Notes: a model not told the origin generated them from the sequence alone. Positions 1 through 4,234 are shown, numbered from the stretch's first letter. The stretch: 4,234 bases of DNA from a virus (IMGVR_UViG_3300028965_000035); one strand, 5' to 3'. Numbers and translations: made by a program.

Positions 1-284
1 TCAGCCGGGGGCAGGCTGCCGGTCACGGCAGCCACCTTTGCGGCCGCGTCGGACGGGGAGACACCAAACACCTTTTCAACCAGTTTCAGGCCGTCACCGG
101 CACCACACTGATTGCAGTACCAGGTGCCGCGCCCCTCCCTGTCATCAAAACGGAAGCGGTCACTCCCGCCACAGACCGGACAGGGCTGATGACGGTTTTT
201 CAGCACCTGAATCCCCAGCGCCGGGAGAATACGCGGCCAGTGGCCGAGCGCATGGCTGACGGTGGCGGTTACGTTCATTTTCAT
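1..284 (-). CDS. alpha: N-terminal ~94 codons of P4-type alpha primase/helicase; gene continues beyond the window start
   Basis: Minus-strand ATG at 284-282, GAAGGAG Shine-Dalgarno (complement of 294-300) about 10 nt upstream. Open frame to the window edge translates MKMNVTATVSHALGHWPRILPALGIQVLKNRHQPCPVCGGSDRFRFDDREGRGTWYCNQCGAGDG..., i.e. a CxxC...CxxC zinc-ribbon typical of primase N-termini. Position downstream of orf106 matches P4 order. Confidence 0.8.
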   Translation of the reverse strand, partial: MKMNVTATVSHALGHWPRILPALGIQVLKNRHQPCPVCGGSDRFRFDDREGRGTWYCNQCGAGDGLKLVEKVFGVSPSDAAAKVAAVTGSLPPA

Positions 285-298
285 GGTGTTGTTCTCCT

Positions 299-619
299 TC
301 AGTGCAGTACCGGCGCTTTTATGTGACGGGCACAGAGTTCATCCATCACAACCAGCCCGAGAAAGGACAGCGACGGCGCGGCCTTCAGGGGGCCGGATTC
401 CATTAAATCTTCCAGCAGGGCACAGGCTATCTGACGCCCTTTTTCCTCACCGTGCTGGCGCAGATAAAAGCCTTCCAGCTCAGCGGCGATGGCCGCTTCC
501 AGTGACTCAAGGGTGAGATGCGGGTAGCGGTGCTGACGTTCGCACACGGTCAGCCAGGCACAGGCGACAGCGCGACGGTAAAGGGCAGCGCGTAAGACGG
601 GCGGTAAGGGTGTTTTCAT
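299..619 (-). CDS. Hypothetical protein, 106 aa (P4 orf106 equivalent), function unknown
   Basis: Complete ORF in the track. ATG at 619-617 preceded by GGGAGG (complement of 627-632) with 7-nt spacer. TGA stop at 301-299 lies inside the alpha Shine-Dalgarno region. Length and position match P4 orf106. Confidence 0.75.
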
Positions 620-700
620 TTGTTTTCCTCCCTGTGACAGATGACTGCATTCCGTGCCGGTTGCATTAACTGATAAGGCATATCTGCGTCTCCTGAAGAC

Positions 701-726
701 GTGCGTATCCCTGCGCGAATACGCAC
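701..726. other. Intergenic stem-loop between orf151 and orf106 (8-bp stem GTGCGTAT/ATACGCAC, 10-nt loop)
   Basis: Perfect inverted repeat 701-708 / 719-726. On the + strand it is followed by T-rich sequence (727-750), so it looks like an intrinsic terminator for antisense transcription. On the - strand it sits 29 nt after the orf151 stop with no U-run. Confidence 0.4.
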
Positions 727-754
727 ATTTAATTTTTCGGGTGTCGTTTTTTAA

Positions 755-1210
755 TTACAGATAATTGCGGTAACTGTTATCCGGGGTGATTTCCGGGTCA
801 GGCTCCGTGCGGGGAATTTCCCGCCATTCCCGCGCCACCGGTGCCGCCCGGCTGGCCGGAACAGTGTCCTGCGGGTAAATATCCAGATATTTCTCCCGCC
901 ATTTCTGTAATTCCGGGTCTCCGGCCATTTCTTTCAGTACCGCATGCCGGTTTACGGGGCTGCGTTTAAACAGGTCAGGACGGTCACAGGTAAATTCCCG
1001 CAGAAAACGCCCCAGCGGGATGTCTGTGGTGCGCCCGTCAGCGAGGATACGCACAAGGATACTGAATTTACGGCGGTACGGGTTCCAGACAATGTCCGGG
1101 CAGCGGTACGGCATTTCCCACGGAATACCGTCTTCCAGAATGCCGACCACGGCCACATCGGGAAAACCGGCAGAACGGTAAATCTCACCGGGCTGGGGAA
1201 AATCAAACAT
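755..1210 (-). CDS. Hypothetical protein, 151 aa (P4 orf151 equivalent), function unknown
   Basis: Complete ORF in the track. ATG at 1210-1208 overlaps the end of the upstream epsilon frame (ATGTTTGA, 8-nt overlap). TAA stop at 757-755. Length and position match P4 orf151. Confidence 0.75.
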   Translation of the reverse strand: MFDFPQPGEIYRSAGFPDVAVVGILEDGIPWEMPYRCPDIVWNPYRRKFSILVRILADGRTTDIPLGRFLREFTCDRPDLFKRSPVNRHAVLKEMAGDPELQKWREKYLDIYPQDTVPASRAAPVAREWREIPRTEPDPEITPDNSYRNYL

Positions 1211-1490
1211 GCGTCCTGTCTCCCCGGTCTTTCTGCTGGGCGAGAAAATCGCGGCACAGGCCTTTGGCTTTCAGCTCATTCAGCACAAAATCAATATCTT
1301 CATTCAGGTAGCTGAAAATATGCGGAATGTAGAGCTGATGCAGGCCGGAGAGTTCACGGTGAATCAAATCACCCCCAACAAACCGGGATACGGCGCTGGC
1401 GCGGTTGAGCTTATGGTAAGCCTCAATGCTGAGGTGTTCACGGGCGTCATGACGCGCTGAGACGGTCTGAGGGGTTTTTTTATTACGCAC
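1203..1490 (-). CDS. epsilon: Epsilon-like helper-prophage derepression protein, 95 aa if started at the GTG
   Basis: The track shows a 175-aa frame (1203-1730) whose upstream part overlaps kil in another frame. The only start with a ribosome-binding site is GTG at 1490-1488, preceded by GGAGGTG (complement of 1495-1501) with a 4-6 nt spacer. It lies 2 nt past the kil TAA stop (1485-1483). Product ends ...DRGDRTHV. Assignment is by position and size; the start codon is inferred. Confidence 0.55.
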
Positions 1491-1680
1491 GGGACACCTC
1501 CACCACCGGCAGACGGGCAGCAAGGGAGAGCACATAGTCACGGACAAGGGAACGGCGGGCACTGCGTTCATCACCGGCGACGGTGCGAAGCATGCAGATA
1601 CGGGGATGACGGTCTGCGCGACGGACAGCCGCAAACACAAAGACAAATTCAGGGTGTGAAGGGGTAAGGGTTGTAGCCAT
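1483..1680 (-). CDS. kil: Kil, 65 aa; an in-frame internal ATG at 1593-1591 would give a nested 36-aa product (eta-like)
   Basis: ATG at 1680-1678 preceded by AAGGAG (complement of 1689-1694) with 8-nt spacer. This is residue 147 of the 211-aa track ORF 1483-2118, whose upstream part covers the CI RNA/seqA leader and is therefore not coding. Product [65 protein letters not shown]. Confidence 0.6.
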
Positions 1681-1686
1681 AAGGCA

Positions 1687-1699
1687 GTCTCCTTCGAGT
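1687..1699 (-). promoter_or_regulatory. seqC-like target of the CI RNA loop, overlapping the kil ribosome-binding site
   Basis: + strand GTCTCCTTCGAGT (1687-1699) matches 12 of 13 positions of GTCGCCTTCGAGT at 1946-1958. Its transcript ACUCGAAGGAGAC is complementary to the loop AUUCUUCGAG in the 1746-1810 RNA (about 9 bp including one G-U). Confidence 0.55.
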
Positions 1700-1745
1700 A
1701 GCAAATAACTGCTATCGCCGGAGTTCTCACGCTCGATGGCGATAG

Positions 1746-1810
1746 CCCAGACGGGGGTGAGAATACCGGCCTCGAAGAATACCGGCCAGCCCGGAGGCTG
1801 CCCCGCCTGA
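1746..1810 (-). ncRNA. cI: CI-type immunity RNA (antisense regulator carrying seqB in a hairpin loop); ends approximate
   Basis: Minus-strand transcript folds into an outer stem (GGCGGGG 1807-1801 with CCCCGUC 1756-1750) enclosing two hairpins: CAGCC-UCCG-GGCUG, and a CCGG/CCGG stem with 10-nt loop AUUCUUCGAG. The complement of that loop, CTCGAAG (1771-1777), occurs only here in the window. Flanked by the direct repeat GAATACCGGCC (1761-1771, 1777-1787). Confidence 0.5.
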
Positions 1811-1919
1811 GCTACCATTGACTCAGTGGCATAACATGCGATTGCGAACAGGATCATACCTGCACGGCAAACCACACGCCACACCATAATCTGGCGCTCT
1901 GTGGCGTTGATTGCGACAC

Positions 1920-1941
1920 AAAAAAAGACGCATGGCGCGTC
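1920..1941 (-). terminator. Terminator-like hairpin plus U7 in the PLE leader, immediately downstream of seqA
   Basis: Minus-strand RNA GACGC-GCCAU-GCGUC (5-bp GC-rich stem, 1941-1927) followed directly by UUUUUUU (1926-1920). The stem is short, so this is more likely a weak or conditional terminator than a constitutive one. Confidence 0.4.
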
Positions 1942-1945
1942 ATAT

Positions 1946-1958
1946 GTCGCCTTCGAGT
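1946..1958 (-). promoter_or_regulatory. seqA-like target of the CI RNA loop in the 5' leader
   Basis: GTCGCCTTCGAGT, direct repeat of the seqC box, about 40-50 nt downstream of the predicted PLE start; complementary to the seqB loop (about 8 bp). Confidence 0.5.
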
Positions 1959-1996
1959 TACACGGGTTCTCACGCCCGGCTGCCGATTTTGCGGCA

Positions 1997-2034
1997 GCGG
2001 AAAAACTATATCCGCAAATGCCGGAAAAAGGCAA
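1997..2034 (-). promoter_or_regulatory. PLE-like constitutive sigma70 promoter of the leftward operon
   Basis: Minus strand -35 TTGCCT (complement of 2029-2034), 18-bp spacer, -10 TATAGT (complement of 2005-2010). Predicted start near 1997, between the vis stop and seqA. Confidence 0.5.
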
Positions 2035-2069
2035 GCCAGAAAAAGGGAGTTTTTGCAGAGCGGGCATCA

Positions 2070-2336
2070 TCATGCGTCGTACCCCCGTTTGCGTCCGGCA
2101 ATGCGCCCGGTCATCCATGCGGTGATTTCAGAGTGCAGCCAGGCCACATTTTTACCGCCAAGACTCACCTGCGGCGGAAATTCCCCCTTACGGATGAGTT
2201 CATAGATGGTCGAGCGTGACAGGCCGCACAGGTGCATCACTTCCGGCAGACGTAAAAAACGCTCCTGCGTGATGTCCGGCAGCGGCATCAGTGGCGTCAC
2301 TGGGGCGGGAGACGGGGAAGAAAAAACAGCTTGCAT
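2070..2336 (-). CDS. vis: Vis, AlpA/excisionase-family helix-turn-helix regulator, 88 aa
   Basis: Complete ORF. ATG at 2336-2334 preceded by GAGGT (complement of 2344-2348) with 7-nt spacer. Product contains [27 protein letters not shown], a typical AlpA/Xis-type HTH. First gene downstream of the PLL-like promoter. Confidence 0.8.
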
Positions 2337-2384
2337 CGGGCTACCTCGTTAATGTCCATACAGCACCGGATAAGTCCGTCCGGC

Positions 2385-2456
2385 TTCGGGTAGCGCTTTA
2401 TTTTGTGAATATTTTCGGCAGACGCAACAGGGGGGATTTGTTCAGGCAGCCTTACA
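2385..2456 (-). promoter_or_regulatory. PLL-like late promoter with Delta/Ogr-type activator dyad TGT-N12-ACA
   Basis: Dyad TGTTCAGGCAGCCTTACA at 2439-2456 (centre 2447.5). Weak AT-rich -10 candidate around 2399-2407 on the minus strand, predicted start near 2390, reading into vis. Confidence 0.5.
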
Positions 2457-2520
2457 ATGGCTGTGTGTTTTTTATCCATCCGGACTGGAAGGGTCTCAAA
2501 GGGTTCTGAAGGACCTGGAA

Positions 2521-2740
2521 TTTTTTATAGTGAAATACAAATTGTTTTTTCTTATTTATTTCAGTGAATTAATAAAAATAAAAAGTAATAAACAGCACAA
2601 AAAGTCCATGAACGGGTGAACAGTGGTGAACAGACGGTGAACAGTCATTACTGCGATTGTTCACCCTTTAACTTACTGTATTACTTATCTTTTTTATTAA
2701 GGTGAACAGAGGTGAACAGTAAAACATAAAAAAAAACAGT
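2521..2740. other. Replication origin region: AT-rich tract with six copies of the octamer TGTTCACC (alpha-binding iteron type)
   Basis: Complement-strand copies GGTGAACA at 2615-2622, 2625-2632, 2636-2643, 2701-2708, 2711-2718 (each as GGTGAACAG); one opposite-orientation copy TGTTCACC at 2658-2665. Flanked by AT-rich DNA (2521-2600, 2666-2700) and an A9 run at 2728-2736. Confidence 0.7.
2615..2719. repeat. Iteron cluster (GGTGAACAG, five direct copies plus one inverted copy)
   Basis: Exact 8-9 bp repeats at about 10-11 bp (one helical turn) spacing in two blocks, separated by an inverted copy. Confidence 0.8.
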
Positions 2741-2795
2741 AAGCAGGTTTTTCCTGCGACCTTTTCCTGGCTTGCCGGTCTGAGGATGAGTCTCC

Positions 2796-2860
2796 TGTGT
2801 CAGGGCTGGCACATCTGCAATGCGTCGTGTTGTTGTCCGGTGTACGTCACAATTTTCTTA
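2796..2860 (+). promoter_or_regulatory. Psid-like late promoter with Delta/Ogr-type activator dyad TGT-N12-ACA
   Basis: Dyad TGTGTCAGGGCTGGCACA at 2796-2813 (centre 2804.5). Weak -10 candidate CACAAT at 2848-2853, predicted start near 2860, leader of about 25 nt to the sid ATG. Confidence 0.5.
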
Positions 2861-2885
2861 ACCTGAAGTGACGAGGAGCCGGAAA

Positions 2886-3620
2886 ATGTCTGACAACACC
2901 ATCCCTGAATATCTGCAACCCGCGCTGGCACAACTGGAAAAGGCCAGAGCCGCCCATCTTGAGAACGCCCGCCTGATGGATGAGACCGTCACGGCCATTG
3001 AACGGGCAGAGCAGGAAAAAAATGCGCTGGCGCAGGCCGACGGAAACGACGCTGACGACTGGCGCACGGCCTTTCGTGCAGCCGGTGGTGTCCTGAGCGA
3101 CGAGCTGAAACAGCGCCACATTGAGCGCGTGGCACGCCGGGAGCTGGTACAGGAATATGACAATCTGGCCGTGGTGCTGAATTTCGAACGTGAACGCCTG
3201 AAAGGGGCGTGTGACAGCACGGCCACCGCCTACCGGAAGGCACATCATCACCTTCTGAGTCTGTATGCAGAGCATGAGCTGGAACACGCCCTGAATGAAA
3301 CCTGTGAGGCGCTTGTCCGGGCAATGCATCTGAGTATCCTGGTACAGGAAAATCCGCTCGCCAACACCACCGGCCATCAGGGCTACGTCGCACCCGATAA
3401 GGCTGTCATGCAGCAGGTGAAATCATCGCTGGAACAGAAAATTAAACAGATGCAAATCAGCCTCACCGGCGAGCCGGTTCTCCGGCTGGCCGGACTGTCA
3501 GCGGCAACACTCCCGCACATGGATTATGAGGTGGCAGGCACACCGGCACAGCGCAAGGTGTGGCAGGACAAAATAGACCAGCAGGGAGCAGAGCTTAAGG
3601 CCAGAGGACTGCTGTCATGA
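2886..3620 (+). CDS. sid: Sid, external scaffold that redirects helper capsid assembly to the small size, 244 aa
   Basis: ATG at 2886 preceded by GAGGAG (2873-2878) with 7-nt spacer. The track's 2868 start is an in-frame GTG without a ribosome-binding site. TGA stop at 3618-3620 overlaps the delta ATG. Assigned by size and position directly before delta. Confidence 0.85.
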   Translation: MSDNTIPEYLQPALAQLEKARAAHLENARLMDETVTAIERAEQEKNALAQADGNDADDWRTAFRAAGGVLSDELKQRHIERVARRELVQEYDNLAVVLNFERERLKGACDSTATAYRKAHHHLLSLYAEHELEHALNETCEALVRAMHLSILVQENPLANTTGHQGYVAPDKAVMQQVKSSLEQKIKQMQISLTGEPVLRLAGLSAATLPHMDYEVAGTPAQRKVWQDKIDQQGAELKARGLLS

Positions 3621-4117
3621 TTTACTGCCCGTCGTGTGGACATGTTGCTCACACCCGTCGCGCACATTTCATGGACGATGGCACCAAGATAATGATTGCA
3701 CAGTGCCGGAATATTTATTGCTCTGCGACATTTGAAGCGAGTGAAAGCTTTTTCTCTGACAGTAAAGATTCAGGAATGGAATACATTTCAGGCAAACAGA
3801 GATACCGCGATTCACTGACGTCGGCCTCCGGCAGTATGAAACGCCCGAAAAGAATGCTTGTTACCGGATATTGTTGTCGGAGATGTAAAGGCCTTGCGCT
3901 GTCAAGAACATCGCGGCGTCTGTCTCAGGAAGTCACCGAGCGTTTTTATGTGTGCACGGATCCGGGCTGTGGTCTGGTGTTTAAAACGCTTCAGACCATC
4001 ACCCGCTTCATTGTCCGCCCGGTCACGCCGGACGAACTGGCAGAACGCCTGCATGAAAAACAGGAACTGCCGCCAGTACGGTTAAAAACACAATCATATT
4101 CGCTGCGTCTGGAATGA
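3617..4117 (+). CDS. delta: Delta, late-gene transcriptional activator made of two Ogr-like zinc-finger modules, 166 aa
   Basis: ATG at 3617 overlaps the sid stop (ATGA); GAGGA at 3604-3608. N-terminal module MIYCPSCGH...CRNIYCSATF and second module CCRRCKG...CTDPGCGLVF each have CxxC...Cx4C spacing like Ogr-family activators. Confidence 0.85.
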   Translation: MIYCPSCGHVAHTRRAHFMDDGTKIMIAQCRNIYCSATFEASESFFSDSKDSGMEYISGKQRYRDSLTSASGSMKRPKRMLVTGYCCRRCKGLALSRTSRRLSQEVTERFYVCTDPGCGLVFKTLQTITRFIVRPVTPDELAERLHEKQELPPVRLKTQSYSLRLE

Positions 4118-4178
4118 GGGCTGCCGGTTAACCCCGGCCGTTGCGTATTACCGTGAAGGAGATCGGTGAGTAACATCG

Positions 4179-4234
4179 ATGGAGATCGGTTCGTGTCACT
4201 TTCACAGAACCGTTTTTAAATTACCTTCACTGAT
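4179..4234 (+). CDS. 5' end of the next late-operon ORF (psu position in P4), truncated by the window end; product not assignable from 18 codons
   Basis: Only frame open to the window end after delta. First ATG at 4179 (MEIGSCHFHRTVFKLPSL...). The nearest strong Shine-Dalgarno, AAGGAGA at 4156-4162, is 16 nt upstream, which is too far for a good site. Identity uncertain. Confidence 0.3.
   Translation, partial: MEIGSCHFHRTVFKLPSL

What the first reader, a model, noticed from the sequence alone, without database searches (positions are those of the whole stretch)
1687..1958. Antisense RNA immunity circuit: one loop (seqB) with two complementary targets (seqA, seqC), the second overlapping the kil ribosome-binding site
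The loop AUUCUUCGAG in the RNA at 1746-1810 is complementary to two direct-repeat boxes on the same transcript, GTCGCCTTCGAGT (1946-1958) and GTCTCCTTCGAGT (1687-1699). The seqC box overlaps the AAGGAG of kil, so RNA pairing could couple transcription termination with translational control of kil. The RNA folds as an outer stem enclosing two hairpins, compatible with an RNase P-processed small RNA.
Basis: partly seen in the sequence, partly recalled or inferred. Interest (0 to 1): 0.6.

Follow-up and report, generated by a model that had tools for sequence, protein, structure and literature searches.

The report
P4-type antisense RNA immunity switch

Summary
The window is 97% identical to satellite phage P4 (X51522 6686-10838). 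On the minus strand, an Rfam C4-family RNA (1822-1735, 74 bits) carries a loop core UCUUCGAG. That core pairs with CUCGAAGG in two boxes: seqA (1958-1946) and seqC (1699-1687). SeqC runs into the GGAG Shine-Dalgarno of the 65-aa Icd-like kil gene (AUG 1680-1678). The heptamer CTTCGAG occurs exactly three times in the window (0.34 expected).

Relative to P4, loop and both boxes changed together: three double compensatory changes plus one G-C to G-U in each duplex. This predicts heteroimmunity to P4 (cognate -11.5/-12.9 kcal/mol; against P4 targets -2.2/-3.9). Across 48 distinct relatives both duplexes are 97% paired, against 36-55% in slid controls.

The RNA junction UUCUCAC (1763-1757) pairs with GUGAGAA in hairpin loops ahead of seqA (1973-1967) and seqC (1730-1724). 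These match the a1/a2 sites annotated in P1 and co-vary across at least 12 types.

The leader also holds a PLE-like promoter, an isrK-like RNA with an intrinsic terminator, and the homologue of P4's Rho-dependent t_imm inside kil.

Verdict: known mechanism, natural specificity allele, low novelty.

The parts
2005..2034 (-). PLE-like sigma-70 promoter: -35 TTGCCT (2034-2029), 18-nt spacer, -10 TATAGT (2010-2005). The predicted start is near 1998.
   Evidence: Promoter scan. The region is identical to P4 here. The Rfam isrK model starts at 1998.
1921..1998 (-). isrK-like leader RNA, called 'SeqA RNA' in the P4 literature. It contains hairpin 1 (1998-1979), the a1 hairpin, seqA and terminator t1.
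   Evidence: Rfam RF01394, 70.7 bits against a gathering score of 50; RF03163 c4-a1b1, 50.4 against 46.7. Hairpin 1 has 6 of 7 pairs with compensatory changes. PMC3632133 equates IsrK-like with seqA and C4-like with CI RNA.
1963..1978 (-). a1 hairpin CGGG-CGUGAGAA-CCCG. Its loop box GUGAGAA (1973-1967) is complementary to the CI RNA junction.
   Evidence: GTGAGAA occurs exactly 3 times in the window, in this arrangement. It is invariant in 48 relatives and co-varies with the junction across subfamilies. It corresponds to the a1 site annotated in P1.
1946..1958 (-). seqA (b1-type target) ACUCGAAGGCGAC. The pairing core is CUCGAAGG, 1957-1950.
   Evidence: Covariation with seqB: 97.4% of cells paired, 6 of 8 pairs compensatory.
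1920..1941 (-). Intrinsic terminator (t1 type): GACGCG-CCA-UGCGUC followed by U7 (1926-1920), starting 8 nt after the seqA core.
   Evidence: Terminator scan. It is the 3' hairpin of the isrK model and is 93% paired in relatives.
1735..1822 (-). CI RNA gene (C4 antisense RNA family). The closing stem is 1817-1801 with 1756-1740, followed by CCA at 1739-1737.
   Evidence: Rfam RF01695, 74.3 bits against 45, E = 8e-14. Fold -48 kcal/mol, z = -5.35. The outer stem is 100% paired with 5 compensatory pairs.
1770..1781 (-). seqB (b'), the 12-nt loop UAUUCUUCGAGG of hairpin 2. The pairing core is UCUUCGAG (1778-1771), with U1779 added for seqC.
   Evidence: It differs from P4 at 1771, 1774, 1775 and 1778.
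1757..1763 (-). a' box UUCUCAC, in the unpaired junction between hairpin 2 and the closing stem.
1721..1734 (-). a2 hairpin GAG-CGUGAGAA-CUC, with box GUGAGAA at 1730-1724, 25 nt upstream of the seqC core.
   Evidence: It is invariant in 48 relatives.
1687..1699 (-). seqC (b2-type target) ACUCGAAGGAGAC. The pairing core CUCGAAGGA (1698-1690) overlaps the kil Shine-Dalgarno AAGGAG (1694-1689).
   Evidence: Covariation with seqB: 97.4% paired, 6 of 9 pairs compensatory.
1483..1680 (-). kil: a 65-aa Icd-like cell-division inhibitor and the first translated gene after PLE. It contains the homologue of P4 t_imm (1680-1524).
   Evidence: NCBIfam NF033153, 76 bits against a cutoff of 25. The t_imm coordinates X51522 8365-8209 come from PMC3177188 and were mapped through the window/P4 alignment.
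1483..2073 (-). eta reading frame. The open frame runs from 2118, with three AUGs at 2073-2065. It reads through the promoter, leader, CI RNA gene and kil in one frame.
   Evidence: ORF list. PGAP annotates a 196-aa Icd-like CDS in the 99.4%-identical copy. The function of eta is recalled from memory of Forti et al. 1999, which I could not read.

Best explanation
The region is the immunity control region of a P4-like satellite prophage, in the leader of its leftward (alpha/replication) operon on the minus strand.

Transcription from a PLE-like promoter (about 1998) yields a leader from which a C4/CI-family small RNA (about 1817-1737) is cut out. That RNA pairs with the same leader at two places, each through two short contacts:
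- an invariant contact: junction UUCUCAC with loop GUGAGAA;
- a variable, specificity-setting contact: loop UCUUCGAG with CUCGAAGG.

At the upstream site (a1/seqA) pairing lies next to an intrinsic terminator, favouring short isrK-like transcripts. At the downstream site (a2/seqC) pairing covers the kil Shine-Dalgarno. Untranslated kil RNA then exposes the Rho-dependent terminator inside kil. As a result epsilon, orf151, orf106 and alpha are not transcribed and the element stays quiescent and immune.

The variable box differs from P4 at four loop positions, with matching changes in both targets. This element should therefore be immune to itself but not to P4, and P4 not to it.

Shown here: the parts, their complementarity, covariation, and homology to P4. 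Inferred from the P4/P1 literature: processing by RNase P, action in trans, and the termination outcomes.
For: - Identity with P4: 97% identical to P4 across alpha', orf106, orf151, epsilon, the cI region, orf88, ori, sid and delta.
- Rfam: C4, isrK and c4-a1b1 are all above gathering score and in the P4/P1 order.
- Chance: the heptamers CTTCGAG and GTGAGAA each occur exactly 3 times, one in the RNA and one complementary copy in each target.
- Window against P4: substitutions cluster in seqA, seqB and seqC and are compensatory.
- Energies: cognate -11.5/-12.9 kcal/mol; cross with P4 -2.2 to -6.4.
- 48 distinct relatives with 13 loop types: seqA-seqB and seqB-seqC are each 97.4% paired, against 36-55% in slid controls, with covariation scores 0.81 and 0.74 against about 0.25-0.28 in shuffles (0 of 500).
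- Wider sample of 132 elements: 41 loop alleles; cognate mean -13.2 against non-cognate -6.6 kcal/mol.
- a box: an exact 7-nt complement up- and downstream in each of at least 12 junction types; a match of 6 nt or more in 99%/98% of cognate cases against 17%/12% of non-cognate ones.
- Strand: G-U pairs (19 of 48 at one position) would be C-A mismatches on the other strand, so the pairing partners are minus-strand RNAs.
- Structure: the RNA helices are supported (99.1% paired, 12 compensatory pairs).
- kil is Icd-like. The SD and AUG are invariant.
- Literature: the P4 mechanism (PMC4825925; PMC3632133), RNase P (PMC5499578), t_imm (PMC3177188).
Against: - Nothing here shows expression, processing or termination in this particular element.
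- The element carries an IS21-family insertion after delta, so it may be partly defective.
- Folding of the nascent leader gives no clear antiterminator-to-terminator switch on masking a1/seqA. The t1 hairpin probability is about 0.8 free and about 0.95 masked, so how pairing stimulates t1 is not explained by my analysis.
- The covariation counts sequences, not independent events, and the samples were drawn with patterns that fix parts of the RNA frame.
- The a box is invariant among P4-type elements, so its support comes only from comparison across subfamilies.
Confidence: 0.9

Rival explanations
1. The RNA acts only on translation of kil (as P1 C4 does on icd). All termination would then be an indirect polarity effect. 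The upstream seqA site and its terminator would not be a regulatory target, but a decoy or an autoregulatory leftover.
For: The homologous P1 system is annotated as repression of icd/ant translation at a2/b2, with a1/b1 only 'putative'. My folding found no structural switch at the terminator next to seqA. Four natural elements tolerate a weak seqA or seqC match (L057, L050, L023, L030).
Against: SeqA co-varies with the loop as tightly as seqC. It sits 8 nt before a conserved intrinsic terminator in all 48 relatives. P4 genetics reported that both sites are targets and that CI RNA causes termination (summarised in PMC4825925; PMC3632133).
Confidence: 0.15
2. The complementarities act only in cis, as alternative folds of one nascent leader (an attenuator). 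No processed, diffusible small RNA would confer immunity in trans.
For: All three boxes lie on one transcript within 270 nt, and nothing in the sequence alone proves action in trans.
Against: The RNA has its own 17-bp closing stem with compensatory changes and a CCA tail typical of RNase P substrates. The minimum-energy fold of the whole leader does not pair seqB with seqA or seqC. Trans-acting immunity and processing are documented for P4 and P1.
Confidence: 0.05
3. The repeats are DNA-level or protein-level features: operator sites for a protein repressor, or a consequence of the overlapping reading frame (the old 'cI protein'/Ash annotation, eta).
For: X51522 annotates a 137-aa 'cI gene product' here, and Pfam has a Phage_ASH family that matches the frame. 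The boxes are a direct repeat plus one inverted copy, as operators can be.
Against: G-U wobble is tolerated in one strand sense only. Each box sits in a hairpin loop or junction of a conserved RNA structure. Variation keeps complementarity, not protein sequence. The RNA nature of the P4 immunity factor is established.
Confidence: 0.02

Closest known systems
Satellite phage P4 immunity (CI RNA with seqA/seqB/seqC, terminators t1 and t_imm, kil/eta)
   Same: The window is 97% identical in DNA and has the same gene order. It shares the promoter, leader hairpins, terminator, RNA frame, kil start and t_imm segment.
   Different: The recognition core differs: CUCGAAGG/UCUUCGAG here against UUCACAGG/CCUGUGAA in P4. 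The spacer between t1 and the RNA is divergent and has an in-frame 9-bp deletion. The predicted result is heteroimmunity.
Retronphage phiR73, the P4-like element reported to have its own immunity specificity (Sabbattini et al. 1996, cited in PMC7567579)
   Same: It illustrates the same principle: a P4-like element whose immunity specificity differs from P4's. A 99.4%-identical copy of the window lies at tRNA-Sec, which from memory is the phiR73 attachment site.
   Different: I could not compare sequences. The phiR73 record is not held, and no retron msr RNA was found in 10 loci carrying this allele. Whether this is the phiR73 allele is unknown.
Phage P1/P7 immI: C4 RNA, a1/b1 and a2/b2 sites, icd, ant
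   Same: They share the Rfam family and the layout a1-b1, RNA, a2-b2, icd-like gene. The a' box is in the junction and b' in the hairpin-2 loop, and b2 runs into the icd Shine-Dalgarno.
   Different: The box sequences differ (P1 a = UUGACAG, b = GUUAGUG). The downstream genes also differ: antirepressor ant in P1, against epsilon/orf151/alpha replication genes here. P4-type control additionally uses an intrinsic terminator after b1.
N15-like linear-plasmid phages (phiKO2, PY54, YDC107_1, MStein-2023a): CB-type RNA controlling icd/antirepressor
   Same: isrK, c4-a1b1 and C4 hits occur in the same order, followed by icd. MStein-2023a even shares the P4-type a box.
   Different: The b boxes differ, and so do most a boxes (GUAGGAA, UCUCAA). 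These are full phages, not satellites.
Salmonella Gifsy-1 IsrK / STnc1160
   Same: The leader 1998-1921 scores 70.7 bits on the isrK model. PMC4825925 calls P4 SeqA RNA a structural homologue of IsrK and suggests that STnc1160 is the CI counterpart.
   Different: IsrK is reported to activate translation of anrP in trans as an Hfq-binding sRNA. No such role is known or testable here.

Membership tests
Rfam RF01695 C4 antisense RNA (includes P4 CI RNA) | Covariance-model score above the gathering threshold over the full model: a long closing stem enclosing two hairpins. | tested here: met
   74.3 bits against 45, model positions 1-87 of 87, at 1822-1735 (-). The fold agrees, and the helices are supported by covariation.
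Rfam RF01695 C4 antisense RNA (includes P4 CI RNA) | 5' end made by RNase P; stable RNA of about 70-80 nt. | not testable with these tools
   The sequence only fits this: a 17-bp stem followed by CCA at 1739-1737, with CC invariant in 48 relatives. Processing is documented for P4 and P1/P7 in PMC5499578.
P4 immunity system | It lies in the leader of the left (alpha) operon of a P4-like element, downstream of PLE and upstream of epsilon, orf151 and alpha. | tested here: met
   97% identity to X51522 with the same annotated genes. The promoter match is at 2034-2005.
P4 immunity system | SeqB in the RNA is complementary to seqA upstream and seqC downstream on the same transcript. | tested here: met
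   Covariation is shown.
P4 immunity system | SeqC overlaps the translation start region of kil, with kil nested in eta and the Rho-dependent t_imm inside kil. | tested here: met
   The SD is at 1694-1689 and the AUG at 1680-1678. kil is 65 aa and Icd-like. The open frame runs from 2118/2073. The t_imm homologue at 1680-1524 was found by coordinate mapping. Rho dependence itself was not tested.
P4 immunity system | Same immunity specificity as P4 (identical seqA/B/C cores). | tested here: not met
   There are four loop substitutions with matching target changes. Cross-pairing is -2.2 to -6.4 kcal/mol against -11.5 to -14.0 for cognate pairs. It is therefore a P4-type system of a different specificity.
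P4 immunity system | CI RNA supplied in trans causes premature termination and superinfection immunity. | not testable with these tools
   This needs experiments. It is reported for P4 (PMC4825925).
P1-type immI (C4-icd-ant) | Bipartite a/b target sites on both sides of the RNA gene, with b2 at the icd ribosome-binding site. | tested here: met
   The a boxes are at 1973-1967 and 1730-1724, and the b boxes are seqA and seqC. The P1 annotation provides the comparison, and the a box co-varies.
P1-type immI (C4-icd-ant) | An antirepressor gene (ant) downstream of icd. | tested here: not met
   Downstream of kil are epsilon (the Derepression family PF25738, 170 bits), orf151, orf106 and alpha. There is no ant homologue in the window.
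Rfam RF01394 isrK / RF03163 c4-a1b1 | Score above gathering: two 5' hairpins, a single-stranded target box and a Rho-independent terminator. | tested here: met
   isrK scores 70.7 against 50 at 1998-1921, and c4-a1b1 scores 50.4 against 46.7 at 2011-1959.

The most novel reading that the evidence does not exclude
Recognition in P4-type elements may be a two-key code. An invariant 7-nt 'a' contact (RNA junction with a hairpin loop) would nucleate binding, and a hypervariable 8-9-nt 'b' contact (seqB with seqA/seqC) would set specificity.

In my sample there are at least 12 a types and 41 b alleles, and they are combined freely. The window's b core also occurs with two other a types, and an N15-like phage shares the P4 a box. 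This would suggest diversifying selection for mutually heteroimmune satellites, and possible partial cross-talk between satellites and unrelated prophages.

As far as I could check, the P4 literature summaries name only seqA/B/C, and a recent survey of P4-like satellites does not discuss immunity RNAs. The a box in P4-type elements and the allele catalogue may therefore be undescribed.
Probability: 0.25. Interest if true: 0.35.

Novelty: already known. Interest (0 to 1): 0.15.

Why it matters
The finding as stated re-discovers a textbook case of antisense-RNA control, the P4 CI RNA, so it changes nothing in principle.

Its use is practical:
- It annotates the window correctly. An RNA gene and its targets lie under what databases call a 'cI protein', 'Ash' or a long Icd-like CDS.
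- It shows that this element carries a different specificity allele from P4.
- The natural variation gives a clean comparative proof of both RNA-RNA contacts, without experiments.

If the allele diversity reflects selection for heteroimmunity, it could explain how several P4-like satellites coexist in one genome (up to 4 copies per E. coli genome). It would also offer a set of orthogonal natural RNA regulators.

Tried and rejected
- **Primary P4 papers.** I tried to read Sabbattini 1995 (PMC176756), Forti 1999 and Hartmann 1995 (PMC41593). None is held. Details on kil/eta, t1 and the exact RNA ends therefore rest on memory or on secondary citations.
- **phiR73.** I tried to fetch M64113 to ask whether the window carries its allele. 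The record is not in the collections. An Rfam scan of 10 loci with the window allele found no retron msr RNA, so the question stays open.
- **Terminator switch.** I tested whether masking a1/seqA switches the nascent leader from an antiterminator to the terminator fold. It does not: t1 forms in both states. I rejected a simple structural switch as the explanation.
- **Protein or DNA operator reading.** I considered reading the repeats as protein-coding or operator features. I rejected this on the strand-specific G-U wobble and the position of the boxes in RNA loops.
- **Literature search.** One search on timm/kil/eta returned only irrelevant papers.
- **First seqA search.** An ungapped search for seqA failed for several loop types because the search region was badly chosen. 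The alignment showed canonical seqA boxes in all of them.
- **Coordinate error.** My first kil coordinate (AUG at 1678) was off by two. The AUG is at 1680-1678.

Full report
**What the window is**

A megablast against phage records shows that window 1-4141 is 97.0% identical to satellite phage P4 (X51522 / NC_001609, 6686-10838).

The P4 annotation places these features:
- Minus strand: the start of alpha, orf106, orf151, epsilon, the old 'cI gene product' ORF and orf88.
- Plus strand: ori, sid and delta.

The finding therefore lies in the leader of the P4 left (replication) operon, which is transcribed on the minus strand. A 99.4%-identical copy in E. coli KS-NP019 is a P4-like prophage next to tRNA-Sec. 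The 421-nt immunity region occurs in 1048 of 5426 complete E. coli genomes. In 64 of them it is at least 99% identical, and there are up to 4 copies per genome.

**Checking the observation**

- The two boxes are at the stated coordinates and are the only matches to their consensus.
- The heptamer CTTCGAG occurs exactly three times in 4234 bases: twice on the plus strand inside the boxes and once on the minus strand in the RNA loop. The expectation is 0.34, and none of 200 shuffles gave three.
- Rfam places a full-length C4 antisense RNA at 1822-1735 on the minus strand (74.3 bits; gathering score 45).
- The single-sequence fold gives the same shape: a 17-bp closing stem enclosing two hairpins, -48 kcal/mol, z = -5.35.
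- The second hairpin carries the 12-nt loop UAUUCUUCGAGG (1781-1770).
- On the transcript, seqA reads ACUCGAAGGCGAC (1958-1946) and seqC reads ACUCGAAGGAGAC (1699-1687).
- The loop core UCUUCGAG pairs with CUCGAAGG by 7 Watson-Crick pairs and one G-U. One more U-A pair forms at seqC.
- SeqC runs into AAGGAG (1694-1689), 8 nt before the AUG at 1680-1678.
- That AUG opens a 65-aa ORF that matches the Icd-like cell-division-inhibitor domain (76 bits; cutoff 25).

**The natural experiment against P4**

The 221 differences from P4 are not spread evenly. In the immunity region they cluster in three places:
- seqC: 1688, 1694, 1695, 1698
- the loop: 1771, 1774, 1775, 1778
- seqA: 1953, 1954, 1957

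P4 has target UUCACAGG and loop CCUGUGAA. The window has target CUCGAAGG and loop UCUUCGAG. That amounts to three double compensatory changes and one G-C to G-U change, made in parallel in both targets.

Computed duplex energies:

| Loop | Targets | seqA (kcal/mol) | seqC (kcal/mol) |
|---|---|---|---|
| Window | Own | -11.5 | -12.9 |
| Window | P4 | -2.2 | -3.9 |
| P4 | Window | -4.2 | -6.4 |
| P4 | Own | -11.8 | -14.0 |

The element should therefore be heteroimmune to P4. A P4-like element with its own immunity specificity, retronphage phiR73, is in the literature (Sabbattini et al. 1996, cited in PMC7567579). I could not obtain its sequence to see whether this is the same allele.

**Covariation across relatives**

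I scanned IMG/VR and one genome per species with the conserved RNA frame, leaving the loop as N. This gave 71 loci, including Kluyvera, Klebsiella, Rahnella, Pantoea and others, with 13 loop types. I aligned 48 distinct 350-nt transcripts.

| Measure | seqA with seqB | seqB with seqC |
|---|---|---|
| Cells forming standard pairs | 97.4% | 97.4% |
| Same, partner slid 1-3 columns | 36-55% | 39-53% |
| Pairs with changes on both sides | 6 of 8 | 6 of 9 |
| Covariation score | 0.81 | 0.74 |
| Shuffle mean (shuffles reaching observed) | 0.28 (0 of 500) | 0.25 (0 of 500) |

At one position 19 of 48 sequences have G-U instead of G-C. On the opposite strand this would be a C-A mismatch, so the pairing partners are minus-strand RNAs and not DNA sites.

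The RNA's own helices and the first leader hairpin are also supported: 99.1% paired, with 12 pairs showing compensatory changes. The hairpin-2 stem and part of hairpin 1 were fixed by my search pattern, so they carry no information.

The unpaired junction of the RNA, UUCUCAC (1763-1757), is complementary to GUGAGAA. That box sits in the 8-nt loops of two small hairpins:
- one is 9 nt before the seqA core (1973-1967);
- the other is 25 nt before the seqC core (1730-1724).

GTGAGAA also occurs exactly three times in the window, in this arrangement (0.41 expected; 1 of 200 shuffles).

The P1 genome record annotates exactly this layout: a1 UUGACAG, b1, the c4 RNA, a2 UUGACAG, b2, then icd. Its a' (CUGUCAA) is in the junction and its b' is in the hairpin-2 loop. 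So seqA and seqC are the b1/b2 sites, seqB is b', and the GUGAGAA boxes are a1/a2.

The box is invariant in P4-type elements but co-varies across subfamilies:
- GUAGGAA with UUCCUAC in phiKO2 and PY54;
- UCUCAA with UUGAGA in YDC107_1.

A looser scan that leaves the junction free gave 132 distinct elements with at least 12 a types. Each has an exact 7-nt complement on both sides of the RNA. A match of 6 nt or more is found in 99%/98% of cognate cases against 17%/12% of non-cognate ones.

The same sample holds 41 loop alleles. Mean cognate pairing is -13.2 kcal/mol against -6.6 for non-cognate. Only four elements have a weak site.

**The rest of the anatomy**

- A sigma-70-like promoter (TTGCCT, 18 nt, TATAGT; 2034-2005) precedes the leader.
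- Rfam's isrK model (70.7 bits) covers 1998-1921 and the c4-a1b1 model (50.4 bits) covers 2011-1959.
- The leader contains hairpin 1, the a1 hairpin, seqA and an intrinsic terminator (GACGCG-CCA-UGCGUC plus U7, 1941-1920).
- PMC3632133 states that the IsrK-like and C4-like RNAs are what the P4 literature calls seqA and CI RNA.
- P4's Rho-dependent terminator t_imm is given as X51522 8365-8209 in PMC3177188. Through the alignment this is window 1680-1524, from the kil AUG into kil, with two substitutions.
- kil is the end of a longer open frame that starts at 2118, with three AUGs at 2073-2065. PGAP annotates it as a 196-aa Icd-like CDS in the near-identical copy.
- From memory of Forti et al. 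1999, which I could not read, this longer frame is eta. It is translated only from the upstream PLL promoter, and its translation carries RNA polymerase through t_imm.

**How it most likely works**

Shown here:
- the parts and their homology to P4;
- the two bipartite complementarities and their covariation;
- the overlap of seqC with the kil ribosome-binding site;
- the position of terminators directly after seqA and inside kil.

Taken from the literature on P4 and P1:
- the RNA is cut from the leader, with RNase P making the 5' end (PMC5499578);
- it acts as an antisense RNA on seqA and seqC and causes premature termination, so the replication genes are not expressed in the lysogen (PMC4825925).

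Inferred:
- pairing at a2/seqC blocks kil translation and so exposes t_imm to Rho;
- pairing at a1/seqA favours termination at the adjacent intrinsic terminator;
- the a contact nucleates binding and the b contact sets specificity.

My folding does not explain the effect at the intrinsic terminator. The hairpin forms with probability about 0.8 without masking of a1/seqA and about 0.95 with it.

**Rivals**

- A purely translational mode with seqA as a bystander is hard to square with seqA co-varying as tightly as seqC and lying next to a conserved terminator.
- A cis-only attenuator does not explain the RNA's own conserved closing stem and CCA tail.
- A protein or DNA reading is contradicted by strand-specific wobble and by the boxes lying in RNA loops.
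- The element may be partly defective, because an IS21-family element is inserted after delta. All parts of the immunity region are nevertheless intact.

**Verdict**

It is the known P4/C4-type RNA immunity system, carried by a common E. coli satellite prophage.

- the different specificity allele;
- the second (a-type) contact;
- the terminator after seqA;
- a comparative proof of both contacts.

Interest is low. The only modestly novel angle is the combinatorial diversity of a and b boxes. It may already be described in papers I could not read.

Noticed in passing
window 4142-4234: Similarity to P4 and to the near-identical E. coli copy stops at 4141, 24 nt after the delta stop. The remaining 93 bases are 99% identical to the end of an IS21-family ISEc12 element (istB side). 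The IS therefore sits between delta and psu.
   Followed up: partly
window 2483-2520: P4's three 'ori type 2' decamer repeats (CCACTTAAAG-like) are replaced by three different decamers (GGACTGGAAG, GGTCTCAAAG, GGTTCTGAAG), while the flanks are nearly identical. This looks like a cassette-like swap of a repeated site of unknown partner.
   Followed up: no
window 1823-1880 (minus strand, between the terminator and the CI RNA): This is a second hot spot of divergence from P4. It includes a 9-bp deletion that keeps the eta frame. The stretch is hypervariable or absent in relatives.
   Followed up: no
L057:3694-4043 (IMG/VR UViG_2671181114_000016): A natural mosaic: it has the window-type loop and seqC but P4-type seqA (-4.3 kcal/mol with its own loop). 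L050 also has a mismatched seqA. In L023 and L030 both targets are degenerate.
   Followed up: partly
L110, L113, L121, L145 (IMG/VR loci): The window's variable core UCUUCGAG also occurs in elements whose invariant box is of another type (GUAGGAA or GUGGAAA). The two boxes therefore assort independently.
   Followed up: no
L079:1-270 (Enterobacter phage MStein-2023a, an N15-like Ravinvirus): This full phage carries a C4-type RNA with the same invariant box pair as P4-type satellites (GUGAGAA/UUCUCAC) but a different variable box. Partial cross-recognition between a phage and satellites is conceivable.
   Followed up: no
window 1483-1899 and 1483-2118 (minus strand): Protein annotations lie over the RNA gene and its targets: the 137-aa 'cI gene product' in X51522, Pfam Phage_ASH (77.9 bits on the eta frame), and PGAP's 196-aa 'Icd-like' CDS. 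Only the last 65 codons (kil) match the Icd domain.
   Followed up: partly
L074:12414-14099 (E. coli KS-NP019): In the near-identical prophage at tRNA-Sec, the variable slot between psu and the integrase holds an AIPR-family (abortive-infection-type) gene. This fits the reported defence hotspot of P4-like satellites.
   Followed up: no
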